From a virus, in UHGV virus genome UHGV-1351768: a DNA stretch of 19,042 bases. One strand, written 5' to 3'. A program made the translations under genes and the position numbers. Numbering within the stretch: the first letter of the stretch is position 1; each line of letters opens with the position of its first letter. The notes below the pieces were generated by a model. That model ran no database searches. It was not told where the DNA came from and was given only the letters and a program-made list of their open reading frames with translations. Of this stretch, positions 1 to 19,042 are shown in pieces.

Positions 1-294
1 AGGCACAGATACCGTCTCTGGAGGGGCGGCGTAAAGCGGAGTTACGGTAATTTCGTACTCGTTTATATCCTCGTCGCTGATATTTGCGAAATAGCGAAGG
101 ATGCCTTTCTCTCCACGACTACGAGCGTCAGAGTCCTGAATGATATACGCCACAGGCTCTGCTTCCAGCGATGCCAGCGCAATCCGTGCCAGTTCTTCCG
201 CTTCTTCTGCTGGCAGTACAACGTTGCTACCAGGTCCGTATGTTTCGCGCCACTGCTTGATTGTCAGTAGTCGCTCTTTGGTAATAGTGATCAT
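1..294 (-). CDS. hypothetical phage early protein, partial (3' end lies beyond window start; 98 N-terminal codons present)
   Basis: Minus-strand reading frame from ATG at 294..292 (MITITKERLLTIKQWRETYGPGSNVVLPAEE...) with no stop before coordinate 1. Its ATG overlaps the stop of the upstream gene (ATGA junction). Absent from the ORF track because it is incomplete. Confidence 0.45.
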   Translation of the reverse strand, partial: MITITKERLLTIKQWRETYGPGSNVVLPAEEAEELARIALASLEAEPVAYIIQDSDARSRGEKGILRYFANISDEDINEYEITVTPLYAAPPETVSVP

Positions 295-806
295 GCCGCG
301 TTTCCTTCTTTCTTATTAACAATTACACCGTCATATATTTCATTAAGGTGCCCTCTCAACTCCATGCGCCTTAATGCAGATAACATGTAATCGCATTCAA
401 CCTGCTTATTTCCAGTAAATGGCTTATCGTCAGGATTACCCCAACAGCAATTACCCTTGGGCCACCCATGTACTTTCCGTACTCTTCCGTTAACAACGTG
501 AAGTAATCCCCAGCCAGGTGGTAAATCCTCAATTGAAATAATTCCCGGCTCACTAATAAAGAATCGCCAGTCGCCCATTCCAAGAGACGGATTTTTACGA
601 AAACGCTTTTTTCTATCTGCTAACAAGTCAGCACGAGAACACTTCGCTTCTATCAGGCATGATGCTGAATTTCTGAATCCCATAGCATCTGGCTGTTCTC
701 CGGTACTGGTTACAGCTATAAAGCGGTCATGAAAACAAACCTTGAACCCGTTGCGCTTAAGGAACTTGTACGCAATCTGACAGAGTTCGCGGTGTGTTAA
801 CGCCAT
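291..806 (-). CDS. PD-(D/E)XK nuclease superfamily-like protein (possibly MmcB-like), 171 aa
   Basis: ORF 291..887 trimmed to internal ATG at 806..804, which has SD AAAGGAGAG 6 nt upstream and lies 1 nt after the stop of the preceding gene. Motif PD(AMGF)...LIEAKCS fits the PD-x(n)-E-x-K nuclease core. Family assignment is from memory. Confidence 0.55.
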   Translation of the reverse strand: MALTHRELCQIAYKFLKRNGFKVCFHDRFIAVTSTGEQPDAMGFRNSASCLIEAKCSRADLLADRKKRFRKNPSLGMGDWRFFISEPGIISIEDLPPGWGLLHVVNGRVRKVHGWPKGNCCWGNPDDKPFTGNKQVECDYMLSALRRMELRGHLNEIYDGVIVNKKEGNAA

Positions 807-807
807 A

Positions 808-1233
808 TCACTCTCCTTTAATGCGAATGCCAGCGACGCGTGGCACATTAACTTCCACAATGCGCACAGTTGGTTTGTACATCTCAATTGCTGTCAGCCA
901 GTCAGCTCCTGTCATGTGCTTTTCTGCATCGCCATTAGTCCACTGAACCGGTACACCAATAGCCTTCATCGCGATTTCTATTTCCCCGGCAATGGCGCTT
1001 TTTCCGCAACCAGTAAAACCAGAAACAACGACAAGAACTTCACCTTTGGCTGGTTTTATTTCCCGAGCTTCCAGTTCTGCAATGCGCTTTTTGTCTGCTT
1101 CCCGTTCATCCAGTAGTGCCAGCACAACCTGAGGTGTGACTTTCATACGAAATGCCAGCAATTTTTGAGGCGTTGCTACTGTTTCAATTGCTACTGCCGC
1201 CTCACGCAGTGCCTGATAGTTAATTTTGCTCAC
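808..1233 (-). CDS. hypothetical phage protein with Walker A-like motif (GFTGCGKS), 141 aa
   Basis: ORF 808..1254; preferred start is GTG at 1233..1231, preceded by SD AAGGAGG with 6-nt spacer, and overlapping the stop of the upstream 55-codon ORF (GTGA). Contains [16 protein letters not shown], but only about 60 aa follow, too short for a complete P-loop NTPase domain. Confidence 0.5.
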
Positions 1234-1397
1234 TGGTTGCCTCCTTTGCGCCACATCGCATTCAGATATTTGTTGTCATTAACAGAACCGAAACTATTTC
1301 TCTTAAGCAATTCCTCTCTCGATGGCATTGGCTTTACGCGCTGGCGAATAATCATTTCTGCCGGAAGAATGCCGGGATTGTATGCAAGTCCTCTCAT
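1230..1397 (-). CDS. small hypothetical protein, 55 aa ([55 protein letters not shown])
   Basis: Below the length cut-off of the ORF track. ATG at 1397..1395 overlaps the stop of the upstream gene (ATGA); SD GGAGAG 7 nt upstream; its stop overlaps the GTG start of the downstream gene. It fills an otherwise unexplained 140-bp gap. Confidence 0.35.
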
Positions 1398-1675
1398 GAT
1401 TTACTCTCCACGAACTGGTCAATAGCCATGCTAAGTGACACACCTAAAGTCTCGATATGCTGCTGAATATCCTGTAGCGTCTGCGCCTGAGATAACAGGA
1501 TTTCACGGTTGCATAACTCTTTAACCAGATGCTCAAACTTGCTGTAATAACCGATACGACTTAGTGTTTCTTTCCCTGCATTCTCGCCTTCTTTGATAAT
1601 TCCTCTTTCGCTAAGAATCAGATCTTGTTTGGTTCCGGTAATAACGTATTTGCCGAGGTCGATGTTTAGCTTCAT
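1394..1675 (-). CDS. hypothetical phage protein, 93 aa
   Basis: Complete ORF co-oriented with the early-left operon; ATG at 1675 with GGAG upstream; tightly packed with neighbours. Confidence 0.5.
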
Positions 1676-1691
1676 TGTTAATTACTCCATG

Positions 1692-2006
1692 TTAATTTAT
1701 TTGTATGCCTGCTCTTTCTTCATCGAGTTTTTTTAGCTTGTATCGCATAGCTCTTACTGAATAAATTGAGCGGCAGGTTGCAATTGCTATTTCTTCTGCG
1801 GAGAACTTACCGAAAAGTGATACTTCGGCTCTTGTCCAGCGTCTTCCACGAAGTCGGCTAACAATGTCAGCGCCAATCCTTGTTGCTTTCGCCATAACTG
1901 CTTTTTCAGTCCTTTCCAGTTTTTCAGCGATAACTTCAACTGGCATTGTCGCCGCTACTTCGCGCAAGAAATCGACTTCCCATTTCTCCCATGGAGTCTT
2001 TTTCAT
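1692..2006 (-). CDS. hypothetical phage protein, 104 aa, with two tandem W-x-E-(F/L) repeats (possible small DNA-binding protein)
   Basis: Complete ORF with ATG at 2006, 11 nt downstream of the preceding stop. Internal repeat WEKWEVDFLREVA... / RRWTRAEVSLFGKFSAEEIA... is suggestive of paired helix-turn-helix-like units (inference only). Confidence 0.45.
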   Translation of the reverse strand: MKKTPWEKWEVDFLREVAATMPVEVIAEKLERTEKAVMAKATRIGADIVSRLRGRRWTRAEVSLFGKFSAEEIAIATCRSIYSVRAMRYKLKKLDEERAGIQIN

Positions 2007-2017
2007 AGGCGATACCG

Positions 2018-2500
2018 TTATTTGATAAGAAGTGAAGGTTTCCCAACTTTGAGTTGAGCGCCTGGGATATTTATTCCTGCTTTTAGTTGGTGCTTGATTG
2101 CCAACTTGTCGGCTTTAATTGTCGTTTCGAACTCAACGTATTCAGGAGGAAGGGCGCTTGAGTCGATGATTTCTACAGTTTCTGACGGTTTGCGGATTGT
2201 TACCTGGTGAATACCTGCTCGAATATTTTTCTTGCCAACCATTTCAAGCGATGACGCTATATATGATTTGATGCTGTCAATCTTATTTTGAATTACTGCG
2301 GCTCGCTCATTTAGTGACTTTGCCTCTTCCTTGAGGCGCTCAGCATAACCAGATTCATTTTTGATGACGGAAAGAAGTTGCTCTATTTTATCGGTAAATT
2401 CTCCTTCCATGCCTTCTATTGTGTCAGCAATCATCTCTGGCTCTAAATCTGAATCCATCAATTTTGCGTATTCATTGGCTATTTCATACAGTTTGCTCAC
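2018..2500 (-). CDS. Siphovirus Gp157-family protein (recombination-module accessory protein), about 160 aa
   Basis: ORF 2018..2506; preferred start is GTG at 2500..2498 with SD GGAGG and 6-nt spacer. Sequence pattern LYEI..EY...EAI.GE...LKEEAK.L.ERA...IRKP.ETVEI.D...LPPEY...KLAIK..LKAG..IPGA matches my memory of the Gp157 family, which typically sits next to RecT/Sak genes. Confidence 0.6.
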   Translation of the reverse strand: MSKLYEIANEYAKLMDSDLEPEMIADTIEGMEGEFTDKIEQLLSVIKNESGYAERLKEEAKSLNERAAVIQNKIDSIKSYIASSLEMVGKKNIRAGIHQVTIRKPSETVEIIDSSALPPEYVEFETTIKADKLAIKHQLKAGINIPGAQLKVGKPSLLIK

Positions 2501-3387
2501 TGGCAACCTCCAGTTTCGCTTTGCATTCTATGTAAATGGCTTGTACGTTCTGCTGCAATTTCATTCCAGATGTCAGGCGATATGCTTCTGCAAAATATCG
2601 CTTCAAATCATCCATGTTTTCTGCCTGAGCCATTTCATCACAAAGAAGTTGTGCTTTTTCCATTATTTCCTGCTGGCGTTTCCGTTCATCTTCGCGGATA
2701 TCTTCCTCTGATTTGTGCGGCATAACTGGTTCCTGATGCATACCTTCATCTTCGTTAAGCAGGTGAATGGCATTATCCAGTCGCTGGGCTTTAGGCCAGT
2801 ATTTGCTGGCGCGTTTAACTATTGTTTTACGCGCCATCTCTTCCCAGAATGTTTTCCACGGTCCATTCTTTGCCTTGCTCGTTGCTTCCACAGCTTTAAT
2901 TTCTGCCAGACTCATTTCTTCAGTCAGGTAGTCACCATCTGCTGTTTTAACCGTGCAATAACCTCCAACAATAGAGCCTCGCTCACCAAATGCGTTGTAT
3001 TTGTGGGTTGGTGCTGAATCAAGGCCATTTGATTCATAGGTGTCGTTTGAGTACACCAGTTTGCATTGCCCCCACTTAATTGATCCTGTCGATTGTGCAA
3101 GATGAAGTAATCCCATGTAACTGATATCAAGGCACACCATGCCGTCGCGAGGAACCAGATAAGCCAGTTTGCTGGCCGGGTTTAAGGTGATGCCGATCGC
3201 CGCAACGTTGATGATAGCGTTCTGTGCGCGTGGTCGGATTTGCCAGTGCCGTTTTAGCCAGGTAATCATTTTTCTGGAAATACTGAATTGCAAACTGGCT
3301 TTCCTTAGCCCATGTCACCGTCTGTTCAGTCAATGCTCCGCAGAATAACTGCTCCTGCTGTTTAACGAATTCAACGATATTGCTCAT
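2484..3387 (-). pseudogene. recT: RecT-family single-strand annealing recombinase, interrupted by an apparent +1 frameshift (or sequencing indel) near 3225-3235
   Basis: C-terminal 247 codons in ORF 2484..3293 contain the RecT core (NGPWKTFWEEMARKTIVKRASKYWP, compare E. coli RecT NGPWVTHWEEMAKKTAIRRLFKYLP). The N-terminal 56 codons lie in a different frame (ORF 3127..3387, ATG at 3387 overlapping the upstream stop) and align with the RecT N-terminus (..KTALANPTT). The two frames can be joined by removing one base in ccgaccacgcgcacag (minus strand). Confidence 0.6.
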
Positions 3388-3695
3388 GCAGCTTCTCCAT
3401 AAATATGTCTGCGTTTGAATATTGCGAAGGCATATTCAGCCTTAACTCTTTCGGTTATTGCATCCCAGAACCATTCAGCGGATTTTTCCTGATAGTTACA
3501 GTCATCATCTTCCAGCCAGTCGATAGCGTCCTTAGTGTGTTCATCTGGTTTATATGAGCGAAGCATTTCGCTTATTGGGTCGCAACGTTTGCAGAGGCGA
3601 TCAACTTCACTGTTGATTCGCTCGTAATCTTCATCAGTAAAACTTGCGATTATTTGCGATATTTCACGCTTATCATTCAGAGTCAGAATCATCAT
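3384..3695 (-). CDS. hypothetical acidic early protein, 103 aa
   Basis: Complete ORF; ATG at 3695 with SD AGGAG inside the 3' end of the upstream micro-ORF; stop overlaps the recT ATG (ATGA). About 24 D/E versus 15 K/R by my count. Confidence 0.5.
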   Translation of the reverse strand: MMILTLNDKREISQIIASFTDEDYERINSEVDRLCKRCDPISEMLRSYKPDEHTKDAIDWLEDDDCNYQEKSAEWFWDAITERVKAEYAFAIFKRRHIYGEAA

Positions 3696-3780
3696 CTTTC
3701 TCCTGTTCTTTGTGCTGATTGAGCATTTCTTTCATCTGACGAATGAATTCTTCGTCTGACCAGTTATCTGTAAAACTCAT
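3673..3780 (-). CDS. micro-ORF, 35 aa (MSFTDNWSDEEFIRQMKEMLNQHKEQEKDDDSDSE), in the position where lambdoid phages carry kil-like small genes
   Basis: ATG at 3780..3778 overlaps the stop of the upstream 56-aa ORF (ATGA). Below the ORF-track cut-off; weak SD. Supported mainly by translational coupling. Confidence 0.25.
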   Translation of the reverse strand: MSFTDNWSDEEFIRQMKEMLNQHKEQEKDDDSDSE

Positions 3781-3947
3781 GGACGGCCTTGTTGTTTCAA
3801 AATATCCCAAAGCTTTTCGAGCAAGCTTTTCATTCTTGGTTGTTTAAAGTCTGCTCCGGTTAAAATATTTTTTCGTGAATGCTGTACCGATAAAATCGGG
3901 TTGAAAGGGCGAACCGATGCCGCCCCTGCAATAGCGAACTGTTGCAT
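3777..3947 (-). CDS. small protein, 56 aa, possibly cIII-like (FtsH inhibitor); begins MQQFAIAG and contains LWDILKQQG
   Basis: ATG at 3947..3945 with SD AAGGAG and 6-nt spacer. N-terminus and a central motif resemble lambda CIII (MQYAIAG...LIDILNQPG) as I remember it. Position in the early-left operon is appropriate. Confidence 0.4.
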   Translation of the reverse strand: MQQFAIAGAASVRPFNPILSVQHSRKNILTGADFKQPRMKSLLEKLWDILKQQGRP

Positions 3948-4022
3948 AGGATGCTCCTTCTGTTTGATTGCATAACGAAAACGCCTCGAGTGAAGCGTTA
4001 TTGGTATGCGGTAAAGCCGCGC

Positions 4023-4334
4023 TTAGGCGGCTGATGTTTCTTCTTTCAGGCTTTCGAGATATTTACGTGGGTCGTCGTAACATTGGCATTCGCTATACCA
4101 ATCCACCCAGCGATCAGTAAGCCCCATATCTGATAAATCTTCATCGGTAAGGCTCTCATCCCACATCTCAAGGCCGTTAGCATTGCAGTAATCAGGCTTG
4201 ATGTTGTTGTCATACTGAAAGGCGTCATAATCAGTCAGTGCGTCCATCAGGCGAACACCCTCTTCAACACTTGCCACTTCTACAATGAACGGCTTCATAG
4301 GTACTTGCGGGATATGCCAGACACGTAATTTCAT
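4023..4334 (-). CDS. hypothetical strongly acidic early protein, 103 aa (candidate DNA-mimic or anti-restriction-type protein)
   Basis: ORF 4023..4388 trimmed to ATG at 4334, preceded by SD GGAGG. About 23 D/E versus 9 K/R by my count; ends ...EETSAA. Confidence 0.5.
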   Translation of the reverse strand: MKLRVWHIPQVPMKPFIVEVASVEEGVRLMDALTDYDAFQYDNNIKPDYCNANGLEMWDESLTDEDLSDMGLTDRWVDWYSECQCYDDPRKYLESLKEETSAA

Positions 4335-4501
4335 ATATCCTCCGTCAAAAAAATTGCCCTCACACTGGAGGGCAAAGAAGATTTCCAATAATCAGAACAA
4401 GTCAGCTCCTGTTTAGTTACGAGCGACATTGCTCCGTGTATTCACTCGTTGGAATGAATACACAGTGCCGTGTTTATTCTGTTGTTATTTCCAAAGTGAA
4501 T

Positions 4502-4771
4502 TTAATCAGCAATAAAATCTTCTGGTAATTTATCAACCAGTTGATGGCTTATTATCAGCCATTTGCCATCCTTCGTTCCGTATGCGTATTTCTGGTCTTT
4601 TATCATCAGGTGTTCAGCTACTGCCTTAACTGCCTGTTCGGTGACATCTTCTTTCTTTCCTACCCACATTCCTTTTTCAGTGTTTAATGTTCCTTGAAAA
4701 ATACGACCGCTTAATGGGCTTGCGCCCATGGTTTTAATTTCATATAGCACCTTAAAAATAAAGGCCACCAT
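4502..4771 (-). CDS. hypothetical phage early protein, 89 aa
   Basis: Complete ORF; ATG at 4771..4769 overlaps the stop of the upstream IS1-interrupted gene (TGATG). Confidence 0.45.
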   Translation of the reverse strand: MVAFIFKVLYEIKTMGASPLSGRIFQGTLNTEKGMWVGKKEDVTEQAVKAVAEHLMIKDQKYAYGTKDGKWLIISHQLVDKLPEDFIAD

Positions 4772-5058
4772 CAGGCAGCCTTGTTGTAAATGTTGCAGGT
4801 ATCAAGTAAGTAATTAGATGGAGCGCCATAAATTATGAATTCATCGTTTGTCGGGTCCATCTCCATCTCTTGGCCTATTGCCATTCTTGCGTCAGTGTCG
4901 TCAGCGGCGAAGCATAAAACAGCCCACGCCCCCATTGTTTTAAAAAGAACTGCAATTGGCTGTGGTTTTACTGAATTTGCGTTAGCGCGAAAATCATAAA
5001 TCGGGTAATGCTGCCAACTTACTGATTTAGTGTATGATGGTGATTTTAAGGTGCTTGC

Positions 5059-5334
5059 GTGGCTTCCATTTCCATCAGATGTCCTTCCTGCTCCGCTACT
5101 GAAGGCGTGGTGCGTAACGGCAAAAGCACTGCCGGACATCAGCGCTATCTCTGCTCTCATTGCCGTAAAACATGGCAACTACAGTTCACTTACACCGCCT
5201 CTCAGCACGATAAGCACCAGAAAATCATTGATATGGCCATGAATGGCGTCGGATGTCGCGCCAGTGCACGCATTATGGGCGTTGGCCTCAACACGGTTTT
5301 ACGTCACTTAAAAAACTCAGGCCGCAGTCGGTAA
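5059..5334 (+). CDS. insA: IS1 InsA (transposition inhibitor / N-terminal part of the InsAB' transposase), 91 aa
   Basis: ORF-track protein [43 protein letters not shown]... matches IS1 InsA; correct size and position within the element. Confidence 0.9.
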
Positions 5335-5756
5335 CCTCGCGCATACAGCCGGGCAGTGACGTCATCGTCTGCGCGGAAATGGACGAACAGTGGGGCTACG
5401 TCGGTGCTAAATCACGTCAGCGCTGGCTGTTTTACGCGTATGACAGGATACGGAGGACAGTTGTGGCGCACGTTTTCGGTGAACGCACTCTGGCCACACT
5501 GGAGCGTCTTCTGAGCCTGCTGTCGGCCTTTGAGGTCGTGGTATGGATGACGGATGGCTGGCCGCTGTATGAATCACGCCTGAAGGGAAAGCTGCACGTT
5601 ATCAGCAAGCGTTACACTCAGCGCATTGAGCGACATAATCTGAATCTGAGACAACATCTGGCAAGGCTGGGACGGAAGTCGCTGTCGTTCTCAAAATCGG
5701 TGGAGCTGCATGACAAGGTCATCGGGCATTATCTGAACATAAAACACTATCAGTAA
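5253..5756 (+). CDS. insB: IS1 InsB reading frame, 167 aa (expressed as InsAB' by -1 frameshift at the A6C motif near 5310..5316)
   Basis: ORF-track protein ...[22 protein letters not shown]...[52 protein letters not shown]... matches IS1 InsB; slippery TTAAAAAACTC is present in the insA/insB overlap. Confidence 0.85.
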
Positions 5757-5801
5757 GTTGGAGTCATTACCATAAATCGCACTTTCATGAAATCCCATAT
5801 A

Positions 5802-6134
5802 TCACCCCTCATACAGTGGTTTGCTGCCTAATTTCATTTTCTGGCGACCAACACAAGTCACCCCCATTTCACTGCGTGGCTTGCTGTACCATGTGCGCTG
5901 ATTCTTGCGCTCAATACGCTGCAGGTTGCTTTCAATCTGTTCGTGGTATTCAGCCAGCACTGTAAGGTCTATCGGATTCAGTGCGCTTTCTACTCGTGAT
6001 TTCGGTTTGCGATTCAGCGAGAGAATAGGGCGGTTAACTGGTTTTGCGCTTACCCCAACCAACAGGGGATTTGCTGCTTTCCATTGAGCCTGTTTCTCTG
6101 CGCGACGTTCGCGGCGGCGTGTTTGTGCATCCAT
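5802..6134 (-). CDS. N: antitermination protein N (lambda-type), 110 aa
   Basis: ORF 5802..6185 trimmed to ATG at 6134 (SD AGGAG). Begins MDAQTRRRERRAEKQAQWKAANPLLVGVSAKPVNRPILSLNRKPKSRVESALNPIDLTVLAEYH, i.e. the lambda N arginine-rich motif and body. Confidence 0.85.
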   Translation of the reverse strand: MDAQTRRRERRAEKQAQWKAANPLLVGVSAKPVNRPILSLNRKPKSRVESALNPIDLTVLAEYHEQIESNLQRIERKNQRTWYSKPRSEMGVTCVGRQKMKLGSKPLYEG

Positions 6135-6306
6135 CTGGATTCTCCTGTCAGTTAGCTTTGGTGGTGTGGTAGGTGGGAGACCCATTTCGACCTGCTTCGG
6201 CCGACTTCAATTCGGCAATAGTTCCGCAGGCCTCGCCGCTTTACGTGCGACATATTCCCATCCATGAACCCTTCACCACACCCCAAAGCCTTCTGCTTTG
6301 AATGCT

Positions 6307-6337
6307 GCCCTTCTTCAGGGCTTAATTTTTAAGAGCA
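6307..6337 (-). promoter_or_regulatory. nutL (boxB GCCCTGAAGAAGGGC at 6307..6321, boxA-like TGCTCTTAA at 6329..6337, read on the minus strand)
   Basis: Reverse complement reads TGCTCTTAAAAATTAAGCCCTGAAGAAGGGC, matching the lambda nutL boxA/boxB arrangement in the N leader. Confidence 0.75.
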
Positions 6338-6381
6338 TCACCTTCATGGTGGTTAGTGCGTCCTGCTGATGGCTTAAAATT

Positions 6382-6449
6382 ACAATAAAGATTGTATGCT
6401 GTAAACAAGAAATATTGTAAAAAGGGGCGTGAAAAACAAACTCCATTGT
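6382..6449 (-). promoter_or_regulatory. OL operator region with pL: three 14-bp ACAA-N6-TTGT operators of 434 type
   Basis: ACAATAAAGATTGT at 6382..6395, ACAAGAAATATTGT at 6405..6418 and ACAAACTCCATTGT at 6436..6449; these share the ACAA...TTGT half-sites of the OR operators. A -35-like TTTACA is on the minus strand between them. The exact pL hexamers are not resolved. Confidence 0.65.
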
Positions 6450-6499
6450 TTTTAAACGGAAAATAGTTTGTTTTTTGGTTATCGAAATCGAGGTGAGGA

Positions 6500-7852
<1,353 letters not shown>

Positions 7853-7860
7853 GACATTCC

Positions 7861-7892
7861 CGCTCTTACACATCCCCGCCCTGAAAAAGGGC
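7861..7892 (+). promoter_or_regulatory. nutR (boxA CGCTCTTACA 7861..7870, boxB GCCCTGAAAAAGGGC 7878..7892)
   Basis: Canonical lambda-type boxA and boxB hairpin immediately downstream of cro. Confidence 0.8.
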
Positions 7893-7968
7893 ATTACCAG
7901 AAAAAAATCTCTATGGTTTTGCGTTTCTTTGCGAAGCCAACTCTATCTAATCATTAAGGAAATTATCT

Positions 7969-8250
7969 ATGGGTACTATTGCAACTAAAAGCAAGAAAGC
8001 GGCTCGCATCGAGTCAGCCTTGCTGAACAAACTGGCACTGATGGGGCAGAAGACATTCGCTCGAGCGATGGGGGTTCCTGAATATCAGGTAAGCCGATGG
8101 AAGAATGGTTTCTTCTCGCAGGTAAGCATGATGCTGGCTGTTCTGGAATACGGAATCGAAGACGATGAAATGGCTGAGCTGACTAAGCGGCTTGCCAATT
8201 ACCTGACAAAAGAAAAAGCCCCGAAGAACGGCGAATTCTTCGAGGCCTGA
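7969..8250 (+). CDS. cII: CII-like transcriptional activator, 93 aa
   Basis: SD AAGGAA before ATG at 7969. Motifs ARIESALLNKLALMG...SRWK...MLAVLEYG..DDEMAEL parallel lambda CII (ALRIESALLNKIAMLG...SRWK...MLLAVLEWG). Confidence 0.8.
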   Translation: MGTIATKSKKAARIESALLNKLALMGQKTFARAMGVPEYQVSRWKNGFFSQVSMMLAVLEYGIEDDEMAELTKRLANYLTKEKAPKNGEFFEA

Positions 8251-8284
8251 TGTAGAAAGACTGGATCAATCCACAGGAGTAATT

Positions 8285-8446
8285 ATGACAAAACGTCGTA
8301 AGAAATACCAGGAAAAAGAAGAGATTCGACACCCTGATTCACCTGAGGGATTAGTGGTAGCCGCAGCAAATAACAGGGCGTTCGCAGAGCGCCTTGTTGG
8401 TGTTTACAGACTAGCCAAAGCAGGAGTGAAACATGGGCGTCGTTAA
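8285..8446 (+). CDS. micro-ORF, 53 aa, basic (MTKRRKKYQEKEEIRHPDSPEGLVVAAANNRAFAERLVGVYRLAKAGVKHGRR)
   Basis: SD AGGAG 6 nt before ATG at 8285. Lies between cII and the replication initiator; its 3' end overlaps the 5' extension of the O-like ORF. Below the ORF-track cut-off. Confidence 0.3.
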   Translation: MTKRRKKYQEKEEIRHPDSPEGLVVAAANNRAFAERLVGVYRLAKAGVKHGRR

Positions 8447-8495
8447 GTTAGCTGATTACAGGCATAACCCTGTACAACATCAGGAGGCATCCAGT

Positions 8496-9323
8496 ATGGG
8501 GTATGTCTCTATACACCGCCAGTTTATGGACAGCAGGCTCTATAAGGACTCTCAGGCAGTACATCTTTGGCTTCACTTAATCCTCAAGGCTAATCACGAA
8601 TCTACTGTCGTCAATACGGATATTGGGCCGATAACTGTTGATCGCGGTCAGATGATAACTGGACGCCCGTCGCTGGTCAGAGAAACATTCATCCCCGACA
8701 ACAAAGTTCGGAGCTTATTACGGACTTTTGAGTCGAAAGGGATGCTTAATATTTGCTCGATGGGGAAGAAATTTAGCCTGTTTACAATCGTTAAATATGA
8801 CGATTTTCAGGCAAAAAATTGTCCAACGGTTGTCCAACAGTTGTCCAACGCAAACACCAGTAATGGTGCGGCTCTCAGCGGAGATTGTCCAACGGTTGTC
8901 CAACGGTTGTCCATAAACAATAATATAAATAATATCTCTAATACTGACGTATTAGAGAGTGCCACAGCAGACAAAAAGTCTGACAAGAAAAAACCTTCCG
9001 TCAGCTGTCAGGATGTTGTCGATGCTTACCACGAAATCCTTCCTGAAGCGCCAAGAATCCGCGCACTGAATGACAAGCGTAAAAACCAGATCCGAACGTT
9101 CTGGCGCAAAGCCGGAGTGATAACCCGCCAGCTTGACGGGCATGGGTTCACGATGCAGGACTGGAGAAATTATTTGAGCTACGTAGGCGAAAATTGCCGA
9201 TGGATGTTCGAAGAGCGCCCAAACCATCAGCGCGGAACCGTCTGGCACAAAAAGGGATTTGATTTCCTGCTTAACGATAATACCTACCTGAAAGTTCGTG
9301 AGGGTGAACACGATGACCGATAA
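8496..9323 (+). CDS. replication initiator / replisome organiser (O-like, non-lambda type) containing the iteron origin; 275 aa (alternative start at 8433)
   Basis: ORF 8433..9323; ATG at 8496 has the strongest SD (AGGAGG, 8-nt spacer) and begins MGYVSIHRQF..., resembling the N-terminus of phage replisome-organiser proteins. Iterons are embedded in the coding sequence; the next gene is a DnaB-type helicase. Confidence 0.7.
   Translation: MGYVSIHRQFMDSRLYKDSQAVHLWLHLILKANHESTVVNTDIGPITVDRGQMITGRPSLVRETFIPDNKVRSLLRTFESKGMLNICSMGKKFSLFTIVKYDDFQAKNCPTVVQQLSNANTSNGAALSGDCPTVVQRLSINNNINNISNTDVLESATADKKSDKKKPSVSCQDVVDAYHEILPEAPRIRALNDKRKNQIRTFWRKAGVITRQLDGHGFTMQDWRNYLSYVGENCRWMFEERPNHQRGTVWHKKGFDFLLNDNTYLKVREGEHDDR
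8818..8945. repeat. origin of replication: five and a half TTGTCCAAC(N)G iterons in two blocks (8818..8850 and 8884..8914) followed by an AT-rich tract (8915..8945)
   Basis: Direct repeats ttgtccaacgg/ttgtccaacag/ttgtccaacgc, then ttgtccaacgg x2 and ttgtccata, then aacaataatataaataatatctctaatactg. This is the classic lambdoid iteron-plus-AT-rich origin architecture inside the initiator gene. Confidence 0.75.
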
Positions 9324-10749
9324 TTTTTATGCGCCGCCCCATAGCATCGAGGCAGAGCAGGCGGTGATTGGTGGATTGCTTCTGGATGATGACAGCAGTG
9401 AGCGCGTCCGGAAAGTTCTGGCGATGCTGAAGCCTGATTCATTTTACAGCCGACCACACAAAATCCTTTTCGAAGAAATAACCAGAATGCACCGGGAGCA
9501 AAAGCCAGTAGATGGGCTGACGCTTTTCGATGAACTGGAGCGCAAATCGTTAACGGCGTCTGTTGGCGGTTTTGCTTATATCGCTGAGATCGCAAAGAAC
9601 ACGCCAAGCGCAGCAAACATCGTTGCCTATGCAATGCAGGTTCGTGAAACCGCAATGGAACGCTACGCCATCAACCGCATGACTGAAGCGACGGAATTGC
9701 TCTATTCCCGCAACGGAATGACTGCAACACAGAAGTACGAAGCTATTCAGTCGATTTTCACGCAACTGACAGACCATGCAAAAACCGGATCGCGTCGCGG
9801 CCTTCGCTCATTTGGTGAGGTCATGGAAGACTGGGTTAGCGACCTTGAGAAGCGATTTGACCCGTCAGGCGAACAACGAGGAATGAGCACAGGGATCCCA
9901 TCGCTGGACAGGATGCTGTCACCGAAAGGTCTGGTGAAAGGCTCTCTGTTTGTCATTGGCGCTCGCCCTAAGATGGGGAAAACGACGCTATACAGCCAGA
10001 TGGCAATCAACTGCGCAGTGCATGAGAAAAAGCCAGCTCTGATGTTCAGCCTTGAAATGCCCGGTGACCAGATACTGGAAAAACTGGTAGGACAGAAGTC
10101 AGGTGTTAACCCGAATATTTTTTACCTTCCGGCGACAAATGACGCTGATGACGGCTATCAGGGTGATTACGATGGTGACTTCAATAGGGCGATCGAAACA
10201 GCCAATCGCTTGAGTGAAATCGACCTGCTTTACATCGACGACACGCCGGGATTATCTCTGGCTCAAATCGTCAGCGAAAGCCGTCGAATCAAGCGGGAAA
10301 AAGGATGTGTTGGCATGATTCTGGTCGATTACCTGACACTAATGACCGCTGAAAAGGCCGATCGCAACGACCTTGCATACGGCATGATCACCAAAGGACT
10401 GAAGAACCTTGCCAAAGAGCTTGATTGCGTTGTTGTGCTTCTGACACAGCTTAATCGCGCATTGGAAAGCCGAACCAATAAACGCCCATTACCAAGTGAC
10501 TCGCGCGATACAGGGCAGATTGAACAGGATTGCGATTATTGGGTGGGGATCCATCGTGAAGGCGCTTTTGATGACAGTGTTCCACCTGGTGAAACCGAAC
10601 TAATCCTTCGCCTCAATCGTCATGGCAATACCGGCACGGTGTATTGCATTCAGGCAAATGGCGCTATTTATGACACAGACCAACAGTCTGCTGAAATGCG
10701 CCGACGTGAACGCGAGGAACCGCAGTCCAAGAAGAAAGGAGGATTCTGA
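9313..10749 (+). CDS. replicative DNA helicase, DnaB family (P22 gp12-like), 478 aa
   Basis: ORF 9298..10749; ATG at 9313 preceded by GAGGGTG. Contains Walker A GARPKMGKTT, Walker B-like ILVDYLTLM and N-terminal DnaB-like region (EAEQAVIGGLLLD). Confidence 0.85.
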   Translation: MTDNFYAPPHSIEAEQAVIGGLLLDDDSSERVRKVLAMLKPDSFYSRPHKILFEEITRMHREQKPVDGLTLFDELERKSLTASVGGFAYIAEIAKNTPSAANIVAYAMQVRETAMERYAINRMTEATELLYSRNGMTATQKYEAIQSIFTQLTDHAKTGSRRGLRSFGEVMEDWVSDLEKRFDPSGEQRGMSTGIPSLDRMLSPKGLVKGSLFVIGARPKMGKTTLYSQMAINCAVHEKKPALMFSLEMPGDQILEKLVGQKSGVNPNIFYLPATNDADDGYQGDYDGDFNRAIETANRLSEIDLLYIDDTPGLSLAQIVSESRRIKREKGCVGMILVDYLTLMTAEKADRNDLAYGMITKGLKNLAKELDCVVVLLTQLNRALESRTNKRPLPSDSRDTGQIEQDCDYWVGIHREGAFDDSVPPGETELILRLNRHGNTGTVYCIQANGAIYDTDQQSAEMRRREREEPQSKKKGGF

Positions 10750-10829
10750 TGACCATCTACATCACTGAGCTTGTAACAGGCCTGCTGGTAATCGCAGGCC
10801 TTTTTATTTGGGGGAGAGGGAAGTCATGA
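10749..10829 (+). CDS. possible 26-aa hydrophobic micro-protein ([26 protein letters not shown]), in the position occupied by ren in lambda
   Basis: ATG overlaps the helicase stop (TGATG) and its stop overlaps the ninB ATG (ATGA), but a terminator-like hairpin lies inside it. It may be non-coding. Confidence 0.2.
   Translation: MTIYITELVTGLLVIAGLFIWGRGKS
10779..10809 (+). terminator. Rho-independent terminator (tR2-like) between the helicase gene and ninB
   Basis: Stem GGCCTGC (10779..10785) / GCAGGCC (10794..10800), 8-nt loop, followed by TTTTTATTT (10801..10809). Confidence 0.6.
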
Positions 10830-11266
10830 AAAAACTAACCTTTGAAATTCGATCTCCAGCACATCAGCAAAACGCTATTCACGCAGTACAGCAAATCCTT
10901 CCAGACCCAACCAAACCAATCGTAGTAACCATTCAGGAGCGCAACCGCAGCTTAGACCAGAATCGAAAGCTTTGGGCTTGCCTTGGTGACGTTTCTCGTC
11001 AGGTTGAATGGCATGGTCGCTGGCTGGATGCAGAAAGCTGGAAGTGTGTGTTTACCGCAGCCTTAAAGCAGCAGGACGTTGTTCCCAACCTTGCCGGGAA
11101 TGGCTTTGTGGTAATAGGCCAGTCAACCAGCAGGATGCGTGTAAGCGAATTTGCGGAGCTATTAGAGCTTATACAGGCATTCGGTACAGAGCGTGGCGTT
11201 AAGTGGTCAGACGAAGCGCGACTGGCTCTCGAATGGAAAGCGCGATGGGGAGACAGGGCGGCATGA
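10826..11266 (+). CDS. ninB: NinB (Orf family recombination mediator), 146 aa
   Basis: ORF 10808..11266 trimmed to ATG at 10826 (SD GGGGGAGAGGG). Sequence [55 protein letters not shown]... matches lambda NinB as I remember it. Confidence 0.9.
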
Positions 11267-11445
11267 GACGACAGCGACGAAGTTTCACCGACATCATCTG
11301 CGAAAACTGCAAATACCTTCCAACGAAGCGCTCCAGAAATAAACGCAAGCCAATCCCAAAAGAATCTGACGTAAAAACCTTCAATTACACGGCTCACCTG
11401 TGGGATATCCGGTGGCTTAGAGAACGTGCGAGGAAAACAAGGTGA
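11263..11445 (+). CDS. ninE: NinE-like protein, 60 aa
   Basis: ATG at 11263 overlaps the ninB stop (ATGA). [60 protein letters not shown] resembles the lambda nin-region 60-aa protein. Confidence 0.8.
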
Positions 11446-11612
11446 TTGACCCAAATCGAAGTTACGAACAAGAAAGCGTCGAGCGGGCTTTAACGTGCGC
11501 TAACTGCGGTCAGAAACTGCATGTGCTGGAAGTTCACGTGTGCTCCGATTGCTGCGCAGAACTGATGAGCGATCCGAATAGCTCAATGTACGAGGAAGAA
11601 GACGATGAATGA
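11442..11612 (+). CDS. ninF: NinF-like Cys-rich protein, 56 aa
   Basis: GTG at 11442 overlaps the ninE stop (GTGA), with [63 protein letters not shown] matches lambda NinF with a few substitutions (from memory). Confidence 0.75.
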
Positions 11613-12327
11613 GTTAATAAATGGCAATGCCATCAAAATGACAAGCATTGAAATCGCTGAGTTGGTGGGTAAGCGTCATGACAATGTGAAACGTACCATC
11701 GAAACGCTGGCTAAAAATGGTGTTATCCGGCTTCCTCAAATTGAGGTTTCCGAAAGAATCAATAACTTAGGGTTCAATGTTCAGTACGAGCATTACGTCT
11801 TCGAGGGCGAACAAGGTAAGCGAGACAGTATTGTCGTTGTTGCCCAGTTGTCGCCAGAGTTCACCGCTCGCCTTGTTGACCGCTGGCGAGAGCTTGAAGA
11901 AGCTGCGGTTAATATCCCCAAAACGCTACCGGAAGCGTTGCGCCTTGCTGCCGATCTTGCTGAGCAGAAAATGCAACTGGAAAACCAGCTCGCAATTGTC
12001 GCACCTAAAGTTGAGTTTGCCGATCGCGTTGGCGAGGCCAGCGGAATTTTGATTGGAAACTTTGCAAAGGTTGTTGGTATTGGTCAAAACAAACTGTTTG
12101 CGTGGATGCGTGATCACAAAATCCTTATTGCTTCAGGTTCCCGGCGCAATGTGCCAATGCAGGAATATATGGATCGCGGCTATTTCACAGTGAAAGAAAC
12201 AGCGGTCAACACAAATCACGGAATACAGATATCGTTCACCACAAAAATCACCGGGCGCGGTCAACAGTGGCTGACCAGAAAGTTGCTCGATAACGGAATG
12301 CTGAAAGTAACAGGGGAGGCTGCTTAA
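11605..12327 (+). CDS. phage antirepressor-type protein: Rha-like N-terminal domain plus KilA-C (ANT) C-terminal domain, 240 aa
   Basis: N-terminus SIEIAELVGKRHDNVKRTIETL matches the Rha/antirepressor N-domain signature. C-terminal region (PKVEFADRV...GNFAKVVGIGQNKLFAWMRDHKIL...RGYFTVKE) matches the KilA-C pattern. Start overlaps the ninF stop. Confidence 0.75.
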   Translation: MNELINGNAIKMTSIEIAELVGKRHDNVKRTIETLAKNGVIRLPQIEVSERINNLGFNVQYEHYVFEGEQGKRDSIVVVAQLSPEFTARLVDRWRELEEAAVNIPKTLPEALRLAADLAEQKMQLENQLAIVAPKVEFADRVGEASGILIGNFAKVVGIGQNKLFAWMRDHKILIASGSRRNVPMQEYMDRGYFTVKETAVNTNHGIQISFTTKITGRGQQWLTRKLLDNGMLKVTGEAA

Positions 12328-12976: not shown

Positions 12977-13161
12977 ACGCCACAATTCAAACGATACCAG
13001 AGCTTCTTATCCAGACACGAGGCAATCAGACCGAAGTGGCAAGGATGCTTTCCTGCGCAAGAGGAACAGTGCTCAAGTACAACCGAGACAGCAAAGGCGA
13101 GCGTCACGTAATAGTTAACGGCGTCCTGATGGTCAAACAGGGCAAGAGGGGAAGACGATGA
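12973..13161 (+). CDS. ninH: NinH-like protein, 62 aa
   Basis: IPELLIQTRGNQTEVARMLSCARGTVLKYNRDSKGERHVIVNGVLMV parallels lambda NinH (IPDMLVEAYGNQTEVARRLKCSRGTVRKYVDDKDGKMHAIVNDVLMV). Start overlaps the rusA stop. Confidence 0.78.
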   Translation: MNATIQTIPELLIQTRGNQTEVARMLSCARGTVLKYNRDSKGERHVIVNGVLMVKQGKRGRR

Positions 13162-13780
13162 GACTCGAAAGCGTAGCTAAATTTCATTCGCCAAAAAGCC
13201 CGATGATGAGCGACTCACCACGGGCTACGGCTTCTGACTCTCTTTCCGGTACTGATGTGATGGCTGCTATGGGGATGGCGCAATCACAAGCCGGATTCGG
13301 CATGGCTGCATTCTGTGGTAAGCACGAACTCAGCCAGAACGACAAACAAAAGGCTATCAACTATCTGATGCAATTTGCACACAAGGTATCGGGGAAATAC
13401 CGTGGTGTGGCAAAGCTCGAAGGAAATACTAAGGCAAAGGTACTGCAAGTGCTCGCAACATTCGCTTATGCGGATTATTGCCGTAGTGCCGCGACGCCGG
13501 GCGCAAGATGCAGAGATTGCCACGGTACAGGCCGTGCGGTTGATATAGCAAAAACAGAGCAGTGGGGAGAGTTGTTGAGAAAGAGTGCGGAAGATGCAAA
13601 GGCGTCGGCTATTCAAGAATGCCTGCAAGCGCCGCATATCGCGCTGTAACGATGCTAATCCCAAACCTTACCCAACCCACCTGGTCACGCACTGTTAAGC
13701 CGCTGTATGACGCTCTGGTGGTGCAATGCCACAAAGAAGAGTCAATCGCAGACAACATTTTGAATGCGGTCACACGTTAG
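13158..13780 (+). pseudogene. Q: late antiterminator Q (lambda type) with a 1-bp indel in a G-run (GGGG at 13564..13567) that splits the gene into ORFs 13158..13649 and 13562..13780
   Basis: Frame 1 encodes MRLESVAKFHSPKSP...CRDCHGTGRAVDIAKTEQWG, then nonsense. Frame +1 continues VVEKECGRCKGVGYSRMPASAAYRAVTMLIPNLTQPTWSRTVKPLYDALVVQCHKEESIADNILNAVTR. Together they reconstitute a 207-aa Q with its CxxC...CxxC zinc finger; adding one G restores ...ELWGRVVEKEC. Confidence 0.75.
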
Positions 13781-14050: not shown

Positions 14051-14601
14051 ATATCTGCACAACAGGTAAGAGCATTAAAGAACTGGCAAAGAGCTTAACG
14101 GTCTGCGAAAGCATTTCTTAGTGGCACAACTGGCCGGTACAACTGAGTGCTCTTTCCGGTGTGGTGAATGCGCAGGCTGATGCGCGCAGGAGAGCTTCGG
14201 AAGAACAAGGTGCCTGTATACAAGCCGGAGATCAGCGCCGGCCACCACAGCCAAATCCACCCAGAGCAAAACCGTTGTTCATCCTTACCATTCCCTCAGT
14301 ATTTTGGACTACAACCCTCAGCCCATTTTTTAAAGCGTACTTCCACCAAGAACTAGACCTAACCAACTCATTGCTGACACTCTGTGGATACGGTTGTCTA
14401 GTGCGCTTTAAAAAGAAAACCCAGCATCAATGGCTGGGCTTCGTGATATGAGCGGCATGTATTGTTGGCGCAATCCACGCCTGATTTGCTCATGAATGCG
14501 GTCACGAACAAACCCGTTACAAATCAACCGTAACCCGGATTTGTTCAAGCGACCATATCCATAATTCCTAATTTGAACAGATCCCCTTCTGGGGGTAAGA
14601 C

Positions 14602-16715: not shown

Positions 16716-17015
16716 AGATGCCATCACAAAGCCCATCTACGGGTGGGCTTGATAATGAAACCGGAATTTATTCTGGGCAACCAATTAACGGCAGTACAGC
16801 GAAACAACCCAAGCCAGTAAGTGGGGAAATAACACTGGCAGCCACTGAAAGATGAACCTCCTGCCTTATGGCAAAAAAGATTCTTTGTGGTGGCGGACTG
16901 ATGGAAAGACATCGGTTATTGCAGAGACCATTCAATGAGTGGTCTCGACAATGGCTTATACCCTACACGGGATAACTTAACTGATATCCCTTTTAACGGA
17001 TAAACGGAGCCAACA

Positions 17016-17287: not shown

Positions 17288-17783
17288 ATGAATATGGCAG
17301 CACCAAAGGGCAACCGATTTTGGGAGGCCCGCAGTAGTCATGGGCGAAACCCTAAATTCGAATCGCCTGAGGCGCTGTGGGCTGCTTGTTGTGAATACTT
17401 CGAGTGGGCTGATGATAACCCGCTATGGGAGGGTAAGGTATTTTCATATCAGGGAGAAATAATTAAGGCTAATGTCCCTAAGATGCGAGCCATGACTATT
17501 TCAGGATTGTGTACCTTCCTTGATATCACCAGGCAAACATGGGGGAACCTTTCGGTCAATGGAAGGTTTTTCTGACGTCACATCACGAGCGGAAGACATC
17601 ATCTACGACCAGAAATTCTCTGGCGCAGCCGCTGACCTTCTCAACGCTAACATCATCGCCCGTGATTTGGGCCTCAAAGAGCAGTCGCAAGTTGAAGACG
17701 TGACACCTGATAAGGGAGATCGCGATAAGCGACGCTCTCGTATCAAGGAGCTATTCAACCGTGGAACTGGACGCGATTCTTGA
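17288..17783 (+). pseudogene. terminase small subunit with a 1-bp indel in a G5 run (17541..17545) that splits it into ORFs 17288..17575 and 17520..17783
   Basis: Frame 1: [49 protein letters not shown]...[17 protein letters not shown]. Frame 2: [45 protein letters not shown]... Removing one G gives a continuous ...[27 protein letters not shown], matching the TerS pattern (..TW....F.DVT.RAE.IIY.QKF.GAA..LLNANII.RDLGL). Confidence 0.65.
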
Positions 17784-19042
17784 TAACCTGAGCGACGAAG
17801 AGCAAATCGAATTGCTCGAGCTACTCGAAGAAGAAGAGAACTACCGAAACACACACCTGCTATATGAATTTACGCCATACAACAAACAGCGTGAGTTCAT
17901 CGACGCCGGACATGACTATCCAGAGCGATGTTTTATGGCTGGTAACCAGCTTGGTAAGTCATTTACTGGTGCTGCCGAAGTCGCGTTTCACCTTACCGGG
18001 CGTTATCCGGGAACAAAAGGATATCCGGCTGATGGTAAATATGGCGGAGAGTGGAAAGGTAAGCGTTTCTATGAGCCTGTTGTTTTCTGGATTGGCGGCG
18101 AGACAAACGAGACGGTAACCAAAACGACTCAACGCATCCTGTGCGGTCGTATCGAAGAGAATGATGAGCCTGGCTACGGTTCCATACCGAAAGAGGACAT
18201 CATTAGCTGGAAGAAGTCTCCTTTCTTTCCGAATCTTGTTGATCACCTTCTGGTTAAGCATCACACGGCTGATGGCGTTGAAGATGGCATTTCAATCTGC
18301 TACTTCAAACCATACTCGCAAGGCCGTGCTCGCTGGCAGGGTGACACAATCCACGGCGTGTGGTTTGACGAAGAGCCACCATACAGCATTTATGGCGAAG
18401 GTCTTACCCGTACCAACAAATACGGTCAATTCTCAATTCTGACGTTTACCCCGCTGATGGGGATGTCTGACGTTGTTACCAAGTTCCAGAAGAATCCCAG
18501 CAAGTCGCAGAAAGTGGTCAACATGACCATCTATGACGCTGAGCACTATACCGACGAGCAGAAAGAGCAAATCATCGCATCCTATCCAGAGCATGAGAGA
18601 GAGGCGCGTGCTCGCGGTATTCCTACGATGGGTAGTGGTCGAATCTTCCAGATACCGGAAGAGACGATTAAGTGTCAGCCGTTCGAGTGTCCTGATCACT
18701 TCTACGTAATTGGCGGGATGGATTTCGGATGGGATCACCCACAGGCGCAGGTTCAGCTTTGGTGGGATAAGGATGCAGACACAATCTACGTTTCACGCGT
18801 GTGGAAGGCGAAAGAAAAACAGCCGTTCAGGCGTGGGGAGCAGTTAAATCATGGGCGCATAAAGTGCCAACCGCATGGCCTCATGACGGAAACCAGCACG
18901 AGAAGGGCGGCGGTGAGCAGCTTAAAGGGCAGTACGCGGAAGCTGGTTTTATGATGTTGCAGGAGCATGCGACATGGCCTGATGGCGGTAATGCTGTTGA
19001 GCCTGGCATCACTGAATTGCGCGACATGATGCTTGATGGTCT
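17761..19042 (+). pseudogene. terminase large subunit (ATPase Walker A GNQLGKS), frameshifted at an A5 run (18815..18819) and continuing in the -1 frame beyond the window end
   Basis: ORF 17761..18954 (GTG start, SD AAGGAG) ends in nonsense after ...VWKAKEK. The alternative frame from about 18819 is open to 19042 and reads ...TAVQAWGAVKSWAHKVPTAWPHDGNQHEKGGGEQLKGQYAEAGFMMLQEHATWPDGGNAVEPGITELRDMMLDG. Adding one A joins the frames. The 397-aa as-read product is short for a large terminase. Confidence 0.65.

What the first reader, a model, noticed from the sequence alone, without database searches (positions are those of the whole stretch)
3127..3293. recT split across two reading frames
The RecT N-terminal 56 codons (frame of ORF 3127..3387) and the RecT core (ORF 2484..3293) overlap out of frame. 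A single-base change in the segment complementary to 3222..3237 (ccgaccacgcgcacag on the minus strand) would fuse them into one recombinase of about 300 aa. Unlike the other frameshifts in this window, this one is not at a long homopolymer, so a genuine inactivating mutation is more plausible here.
Basis: partly seen in the sequence, partly recalled or inferred. Interest (0 to 1): 0.45.

Follow-up and report, generated by a model that had tools for sequence, protein, structure and literature searches.

The report
One extra base splits prophage recT
A well-known phage recombination gene (recT) in an Sf6/HK620-like E. coli/Shigella prophage is cut in two by one extra base found in no other copy, which is either a sequencing error or a very recent knockout, and ordinary in both cases.

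Summary
ORFs 3127..3387(-) and 2484..3293(-) are the two halves of one recT gene.

The cause is a single extra base: G at + strand 3230 (C on the coding strand, ACC-A[C]G-CGC). Deleting it restores a 903-nt, 300-aa RecT that is 100% identical to WP_000065849.1, with 6 synonymous and 0 non-synonymous differences.

The insertion is private to this window:
- It is absent from 39/39 aligned relatives, 146 E. coli genome records and 63 metagenome contigs.
- It is absent from three assemblies of the same prophage lineage. One of them shares the window's IS1 insertion and has 0 substitutions over 11.7 kb.

Across 17.3 kb compared with that lineage, the window has no private substitution. It has four private 1-nt indels (recT, a T-run, the Q antiterminator, an A-run), and terS and terL are also frameshifted.

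An indels-only pattern favours consensus (sequencing/assembly) error at about 55%. A genuine, very recent null mutation is about 40%. Only reads or resequencing can decide.

The data exclude a natural two-gene RecT, a natural internal start, and recoding. Interest is low.

The parts
2484..3387 (-). recT gene as written: 904 nt, which is 903 nt plus one extra base. ATG at 3387..3385 and TGA at 2486..2484.
   Evidence: The repaired translation is 300 aa and 100% identical to the RecT of E. coli SCZE5 (WP_000065849.1). Family matches: Pfam PF03837 at 115.7 bits, TIGR00616 at 76.8 bits against a cutoff of 52.65, PHROG 148 at E=1.5e-91.
3230..3230 (-). The inserted base: G on the + strand, C on the coding strand, inside codon 53 (wild-type AGC Ser reads A-C-G-C here).
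   Evidence: absent in 39/39 relatives of at least 93% identity; absent in L081, L085 and L087 of the same lineage. The insertion allele has 0 hits in viral, metagenome and genome collections and in 146 E. coli genome records. The wild-type allele is found in 63 metagenome contigs.
3127..3387 (-). N-terminal fragment ORF of 86 aa: native residues 1-52, then 34 out-of-frame residues, then a stop.
   Evidence: It has no Pfam hit on its own. A product of exactly this sequence is not on record in the gene-position collection.
2484..3293 (-). Core fragment ORF of 269 aa from a TTG start: 22 out-of-frame residues, then native residues 54-300.
   Evidence: No Shine-Dalgarno-like sequence is visible before TTG 3293 or ATG 3269 (read).
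3384..3695 (-). Upstream 103-aa gene (PHROG 3486, function unknown). Its stop overlaps the recT start (ATGA).
   Evidence: The same order, 102-aa gene then recT then Gp157, is seen in all relatives.
2018..2500 (-). Downstream Gp157 / 'Mu Gam-like end protection' gene of 160 aa. Its GTG start at 2500 overlaps the recT 3' end by 17 nt.
   Evidence: PHROG 253 at E=2.4e-54. PF05565 is recorded in the gene tables.

Best explanation
The locus is a canonical phage recT gene, a RecT/Red-beta single-strand annealing protein. It lies in the early-left (pL) operon of an Sf6/HK620-like lambdoid prophage, between a conserved 102-aa gene and a Gp157/Gam-like gene.

As written, one extra base at 3230 shifts the frame inside codon 53, which is within the RecT domain. 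The sequence therefore encodes a 52-residue N-terminal stub with a nonsense tail. It also leaves a 247-residue core with no evident translation start, so no functional RecT is encoded.

The most likely origin of the extra base is an indel error in the consensus sequence (sequencing or assembly), not biology. On that reading the real gene is the intact 300-aa recT seen in every other copy.

Shown: the insertion, its position, its uniqueness, and the identity of the repaired protein.
Inferred: loss of function as written, and the error origin.
For: - One-base insertion located at 3230.
- Repair gives 300 aa, 100% identical to WP_000065849.1, with 6 synonymous and 0 non-synonymous differences. 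There is no sign of relaxed selection.
- The insertion is absent from 39/39 relatives, from 146 E. coli genome records (best identity 98.6%, i.e. the one gap), and from the viral, metagenome and species-representative genome collections. The wild-type allele is in 63 metagenome contigs.
- GCA_001292545.1 (L085) carries the same prophage with the same IS1 insertion. It has 0 substitutions over 11,672 columns and an intact 300-aa recT.
- Over 17,341 bases covered by lineage assemblies, the window has 0 private substitutions. It has private 1-nt indels at 3230, 4740, 13563 and the A-run at 14409.
- Q, terS and terL are also each broken by a 1-nt indel. In lineage relatives they are intact: Q in both L123 and L124, terS and terL in L123.
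- Own knowledge: in E. coli mutation accumulation, substitutions outnumber indels roughly 10:1. Four or more indels with no substitution is therefore improbable as real divergence. It is typical of residual long-read or flow-chemistry consensus errors.
Against: - The recT insertion is not in a homopolymer, unlike the window's other private indels. Platform errors concentrate in homopolymers.
- The prophage carries a genuine IS1 insertion with a target duplication, so real mutational damage does occur in this element.
- The Q G4 allele and the terL A5 allele each occur once in other, divergent phage sequences (L091; L116). At least some of the window's indels could therefore be real recurrent slippage.
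- The comparator GCA_001292545.1 has two private homopolymer indels of its own.
- No reads, quality values or platform information are available.
Confidence: 0.55

Rival explanations
1. Genuine, very recent inactivating mutation. A +1 insertion arose in recT of this particular strain's prophage after it split from the lineage represented by GCA_001292545.1. The result is a recT pseudogene in a prophage that is decaying: hit by IS1, with Q, terS and terL also frameshifted.
For: - The site is not a homopolymer.
- A real IS1 insertion with a 9-bp target duplication sits upstream in the same operon.
- Three other genes needed for lytic growth are also frameshifted, as in cryptic prophages.
- The truncated Q product exists in an independent run, and the terL A5 allele in an IMG/VR contig.
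Against: - The window has zero private substitutions against four private indels over 17.3 kb.
- There are zero non-synonymous changes in recT.
- The insertion is unique among all sequences searched.
- The IS1-bearing sister assembly has all these genes intact as far as its contig reaches.
Confidence: 0.4
2. Natural architecture: the two ORFs are separate genes, or this RecT family normally starts at an internal codon of the second ORF.
For: None beyond the existence of the two ORFs.
Against: - Every annotated homologue is one CDS of 300-303 aa.
- 74 of 90 fetched loci have a single-frame full-length match, and none shares this lesion.
- Pfam RecT spans repaired residues 31-214, PHROG 148 spans residues 3-299, and TIGR00616 spans 30-198, so the break is inside the conserved domain.
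- The first 22 residues of ORF 2 are out-of-frame sequence.
Confidence: 0.01
3. Programmed recoding: ribosomal +1 frameshifting or transcriptional slippage restores full-length RecT from the split gene.
For: None.
Against: - There is no slippery or homopolymeric sequence at the site (ACC ACG CGC).
- No relative has the split, so nothing is conserved that could be a recoding signal.
Confidence: 0.01

Closest known systems
RecT family recombinase WP_000065849.1 of E. coli prophages (e.g. strain SCZE5; also phages EC.P3 and E212; 303-aa variants in HK140, mEpX1 and Kapi1)
   Same: After removal of base 3230 the protein is 100% identical over 300 aa. The gene order is the same: 102-aa gene, recT, Gp157. 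The overlapping start and stop signals are the same.
   Different: The window copy carries one extra base and is split into two ORFs. At the DNA level it has 6 synonymous differences from SCZE5.
Rac prophage RecT (NF007351 equivalog) and Listeria innocua phage RecT (PDB 7ub2/7ubb)
   Same: It belongs to the same RecT/Red-beta single-strand annealing family: Pfam PF03837, TIGR00616, and E=7e-5 to 7ub2 over residues 34-204. In LiRecT the N-terminal three-helix bundle forms the upper inter-subunit core and clamps the annealed duplex (PMC9772228). The window's break removes the equivalent region from the core.
   Different: It is not an equivalog of Rac RecT (90.9 bits against a cutoff of 296). 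It is paired with a Gp157/Gam-like protein, and no RecE-type exonuclease is seen in the window.
Frameshifted 'pseudogenes' produced by indel errors in genome assemblies, and true pseudogenes of cryptic prophages
   Same: A single-base indel breaks an otherwise perfectly conserved ORF. Several neighbouring genes (Q, terS, terL) are broken the same way. No substitutions accompany these breaks.
   Different: The recT lesion is outside a homopolymer, which is less typical of platform error. Unlike long-decayed cryptic prophages, there are no nonsense or missense changes and no deletions in the gene.

Membership tests
RecT/Red-beta single-strand annealing proteins (Pfam PF03837; TIGR00616 phage RecT family) | Significant match to the family profile above the curated cutoff | tested here: met
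   For the repaired protein: PF03837 at 115.7 bits (cutoff 24), TIGR00616 at 76.8 bits (cutoff 52.65), PHROG 148 at E=1.5e-91 covering residues 3-299. The core ORF alone still scores 108 bits on PF03837.
RecT/Red-beta single-strand annealing proteins (Pfam PF03837; TIGR00616 phage RecT family) | One uninterrupted ORF encoding the whole DNA-binding domain, including the N-terminal lobe | tested here: not met
   As written the frame breaks at codon 53, inside the Pfam domain (residues 31-214). The feature is met only after deleting base 3230.
RecT/Red-beta single-strand annealing proteins (Pfam PF03837; TIGR00616 phage RecT family) | Sequence relationship to a solved RecT structure | tested here: met
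   phmmer against the PDB: 7ub2_E (LiRecT), E=7.2e-5, query residues 34-204 aligned to chain residues 60-225.
RecT/Red-beta single-strand annealing proteins (Pfam PF03837; TIGR00616 phage RecT family) | ssDNA annealing or recombineering activity | not testable with these tools
   This needs a recombineering or annealing assay of the native allele against the repaired allele.
Rac prophage RecT (NCBIfam NF007351 equivalog) | Score above the equivalog cutoff | tested here: not met
   90.9 bits against a cutoff of 296. It is the same superfamily but not the Rac orthologue.
Sequencing/assembly indel artefact | Indel private to one record and absent from independent assemblies of the same clone or lineage | tested here: met
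   The insertion is absent in L081, L085 and L087 and in all collections searched.
Sequencing/assembly indel artefact | Excess of 1-nt indels over substitutions relative to near-identical sequences | tested here: met
   0 private substitutions against 4 private 1-nt indels over 17,341 bases, plus frameshifts in terS and terL.
Sequencing/assembly indel artefact | Disagreement between the consensus and the underlying reads | not testable with these tools
   No reads or quality values are available for the window.
Sequencing/assembly indel artefact | Location in a homopolymer run | tested here: not met
   The context is ACC-A[C]G-CGC with no run. The window's other indels are in or next to runs of 4 to 6 identical bases.

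The most novel reading that the evidence does not exclude
The insertion is real and was selected, not neutral. Loss of the prophage single-strand annealing protein could be favoured because several bacterial defence systems and satellites sense phage recombinases (theme of PMC11846896). Alternatively, an N-terminally truncated RecT core might be made from an internal start and act as a dominant-negative or altered annealase. Nothing in the data supports selection. The lesion is a singleton with no parallel events at this gene among about 250 copies examined.
Probability: 0.03. Interest if true: 0.45.

Novelty: already known. Interest (0 to 1): 0.08.

Why it matters
It matters little biologically. 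The gene, its family, its neighbours and its intact sequence are all already in public databases.

The practical value is for annotation and quality control:
- recT here should be annotated as a single frameshifted gene (or corrected), not as two proteins.
- The window shows an indel-only difference pattern that should make one distrust all of its frameshifts (recT, Q, terS, terL) until reads are checked.
- If the lesions are real, the prophage is a freshly crippled Sf6-like element, unable to recombine, antiterminate late genes or package DNA. That would be a small but clean example of the first steps of prophage decay.

Tried and rejected
1. I searched for the insertion allele, with degenerate positions allowing for known SNPs, in viral contigs, metagenome contigs and genome contigs, and among E. 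coli complete genomes. There were no hits. The 86-aa fragment is not on record. The source sequence itself is therefore in none of the collections, and independent confirmation of the allele was impossible.

2. I tried to fetch the right-hand part of the sister contigs through the Roi, P and O proteins. These proteins are too widespread, and only unrelated long contigs were returned. The rarer Rz protein worked.

3. I considered dN/dS as a test for relaxed selection. The count of 6 synonymous and 0 non-synonymous differences only shows that the lesion is recent. It cannot separate error from a new mutation.

4. I looked for a methylation motif (Dam, Dcm, EcoKI) or a slippery or quasi-palindromic context at 3230 that would explain either a platform error or a mutational hotspot. 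None was evident by eye in the sequence.

5. Natural split gene, internal start and programmed frameshift were considered and rejected.

6. Structure prediction was not run. The alignment to LiRecT plus the paper sufficed to place the break in the N-terminal lobe.

Full report
**Observation**

The ORF listing shows ORF 3127..3387(-) of 86 aa and ORF 2484..3293(-) of 269 aa, overlapping out of frame over 3127..3293. The first ORF begins MSNIVEFVKQQEQ. The second contains ...AQNAIINVAAIGITLNPASKLAYLVPRDG....

The window as a whole is the early-left operon through the terminase genes of a P22/Sf6/HK620-like lambdoid (pro)phage of E. coli/Shigella.

**Locating the lesion**

Megablast of 2400..3500 finds 16 phage records and 299 E. 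coli genome records. The full-length matches among the closest relatives (97.5-98.9% identity) span 1100 bases against the 1101-base query. In these relatives a single CDS of 903 nt (300 aa) is annotated as a RecT family recombinase. In HK140-type phages it is 912 nt (303 aa).

A four-way alignment shows one extra base in the window, GACCA[C]GCGCACAG against GACCA-GCGCACAG on the coding strand. This is G at + strand 3230. The context is not a homopolymer.

Deleting the base gives a 300-aa protein identical at every residue to the RecT of E. coli SCZE5 (WP_000065849.1). At the DNA level there are 6 synonymous and 0 non-synonymous differences. Against phage EC.P3 the counts are 18 synonymous and 2 non-synonymous.

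ORF 1 is therefore 52 native codons plus 34 nonsense-frame codons. ORF 2 is 22 nonsense-frame codons plus native residues 54-300.

**Family and what the break does**

The repaired protein matches:
- Pfam RecT PF03837 at 115.7 bits over residues 31-214.
- TIGR00616 'phage RecT family' at 76.8 bits, cutoff 52.65.
- PHROG 148 'RecT-like ssDNA annealing protein' at E=1.5e-91 over residues 3-299.
- The solved Listeria innocua phage RecT (7ub2) at E=7e-5, residues 34-204 aligned to 60-225.

It is not an equivalog of Rac RecT (90.9 bits against a cutoff of 296).

The break lies inside the conserved domain. In LiRecT the N-terminal three-helix bundle builds the upper inter-subunit hydrophobic core and is proposed to clamp the annealed duplex (PMC9772228, read). 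The window's core ORF lacks the equivalent first ~53 residues.

No Shine-Dalgarno-like sequence precedes TTG 3293 or ATG 3269 (read). The inference is that, as written, no functional RecT is made.

recT is translationally linked to its neighbours. The upstream 103-aa gene ends in ATGA on the recT start. The Gp157/'Mu Gam-like' gene (PHROG 253) starts 17 nt before the recT stop. Premature termination at 3127 could therefore also lower Gp157 translation; this too is inference.

**Is the split natural?**

No. Of 90 fetched loci with a recT match, 74 have a single-frame, stop-free, full-length match and 8 are cut by the locus end. The other 8 are mostly contigs of ~0.6-1.4x coverage or truncated copies. 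None shares the 3230 insertion.

**Is the insertion seen anywhere else?**

No.
- The insertion-bearing allele, written with degenerate positions for known SNPs, has 0 matches in IMG/VR, in the metagenome collection and in the species-representative genomes.
- A 71-nt probe centred on it finds 146 E. coli genome records, the best at 98.6% identity, which is the one gap.
- The 86-aa product is not on record.
- As a positive control, the wild-type allele is in 63 metagenome contigs.
- All 39 relatives of at least 93% identity aligned at this position lack the base.

**Same-lineage comparison (the most informative result)**

Looking up the window's 93-aa protein (1394..1675) returned contigs of the very same prophage.

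- GCA_001292545.1 contig CYGL01000428.1 (L085) aligns to window 5..11675 with 0 mismatches and only 2 one-base gaps. It includes the same IS1 element at the same site. The two gaps are the recT insertion at 3230 and a missing T in a T-run at 4740. Its recT is an intact 300-aa gene.
- GCA_026142765.1 (L081) is the same prophage without IS1. ERR6006212 (L087) is a short contig that stops just inside the IS1 left end. Both also lack the two window-specific indels.
- The right-hand parts of the two assemblies were obtained through the rare Rz protein (L123 and L124). They have an intact Q (207 aa), and L123 has intact terS (162 aa) and terL (499 aa).

Over 17,341 window bases covered by these assemblies at 99.5% identity or better (16,286 bases by two or more), the window has no private substitution. 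It has private 1-nt indels at 3230 (recT), 4740, 13563 (Q, G5 to G4) and the A-run at 14409.

Further right, terS has an extra base in a G/A run at 17541-17546 and terL has A5 instead of A6 at 18814. Their truncated products are not on record.

**Error or mutation?**

For error:
- The difference pattern is indels only: at least four indels and no substitution in 17 kb, with six single-base frameshift-type lesions in 19 kb.
- Five of the six are in or next to homopolymer runs.
- Every repaired protein is identical or nearly identical to common intact proteins.
- Sister assemblies are intact.
- Own knowledge: in E. coli mutation-accumulation lines, substitutions outnumber indels about ten to one. 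If events were drawn at that ratio, four out of four being indels has a probability of about 1e-4. Even a 4:1 ratio gives about 2e-3.

For a genuine mutation:
- The recT site is not a homopolymer.
- The prophage has suffered a real IS1 transposition. The element is 768 bp at 5004-5771, with 23-bp inverted repeats and a 9-bp duplication CATAAATCG. It lies upstream of recT in the same leftward operon.
- The exact 163-aa truncated Q occurs in a different phage about 2.5% divergent at the DNA level, assembled from run ERR10497706. The terL A5 allele occurs in an IMG/VR contig that is 96.9% identical.
- The comparator GCA_001292545.1 has two private homopolymer indels of its own. This shows either that such differences are technical in several assemblies or that these runs really are unstable.

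I put artefact at about 55%, genuine very recent null mutation at about 40%, and everything else at under 5%. The tools cannot go further without reads.

**Comparison with known systems, and novelty**

Under either reading the underlying object is an already catalogued RecT protein in a well-known gene module of Sf6/HK620/HK140-like phages. A single-base frameshift in it is ordinary. I found no evidence of recoding, a new architecture or selection.

**Verdict**

Interest is low.

Noticed in passing
window 5004-5771 (target duplication at 4995-5003 and 5771-5779): There is a complete 768-bp IS1-type element with 23-bp terminal inverted repeats (GGTAATGCTGCCAACTTACTGAT) and a 9-bp direct duplication CATAAATCG. 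It carries insA- and insB-like ORFs (5059..5334 and 5253..5756) and the A6C frameshift motif at 5310. It is inserted about 6 codons into the 83-aa gene just downstream of N, so it lies upstream of recT in the pL operon and is possibly polar on it. The same insertion is present in GCA_001292545.1 (L085) and absent in GCA_026142765.1 (L081).
   Followed up: partly
window 13158-13780 (indel at 13563/13564): The late antiterminator Q is frameshifted by loss of one G (G5 to G4), giving a 163-aa product instead of 207 aa. Same-lineage assemblies have G5. The identical 163-aa product is encoded on a Logan contig from run ERR10497706 (L091), in a phage about 2.5% divergent at the DNA level.
   Followed up: partly
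window 17288-17783 (indel at 17541-17546): The small terminase (GP3_package family, 162 aa in relatives) is split by one extra base in a GGGGGAA stretch. Relatives have GGGGAA or GGGGGA. The 95-aa fragment is not on record, and the allele has 0 hits in IMG/VR.
   Followed up: partly
window 17761-19042 (indel at 18814/18815): The large terminase is frameshifted by A6 to A5 (GAAAG-AAAAACAG). The same A5 allele occurs once in IMG/VR (UViG_2531839195_000016, L116), in a phage 96.9% identical across this region. This run may be a recurrent slippage or error site.
   Followed up: partly
window 4740 (gene 4502..4771, minus strand): There is a private one-base deletion in a T4 run (A4 on the coding strand) two codons after the annotated ATG of the 80-aa DUF7446-like gene. 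The start region is shifted, and an in-frame Met 5 codons downstream could still give a near-full-length product.
   Followed up: no
window 14405-14425 and 16902: Homopolymer lengths differ among otherwise identical lineage assemblies. At 14405-14425 the window has A5-G-A4, GCA_026142765.1 has A6-G-A4 and GCA_001292545.1 has A6-G-A3. At 16902 the window, L123 and L125 have GG, and GCA_001292545.1 has GGG. Indel-only noise is therefore not confined to the window.
   Followed up: partly
window about 16913-16937: There is a mosaic breakpoint. GCA_026142765.1 (L123) is 99.95% identical up to 16913 and only 97% identical from 16937 onward, through terS and terL. This indicates a recombinational exchange of the packaging module between otherwise identical prophages.
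   Followed up: no
L081 13570-20215 (flank of the sister prophage): The sister prophage is followed by genes whose Pfam families are a LysR-type regulator (PF00126/PF03466), a GntP permease (PF02447) and a PALP enzyme (PF00291), then an MFS transporter and a membrane-fusion protein. From my own knowledge of E. coli K-12 this order resembles dsdC-dsdX-dsdA followed by emrY/emrK, next to tRNA-argW, where Sf6-type phages integrate. No tool named these genes and no attachment site was checked. The window itself does not reach the attachment site.
   Followed up: no
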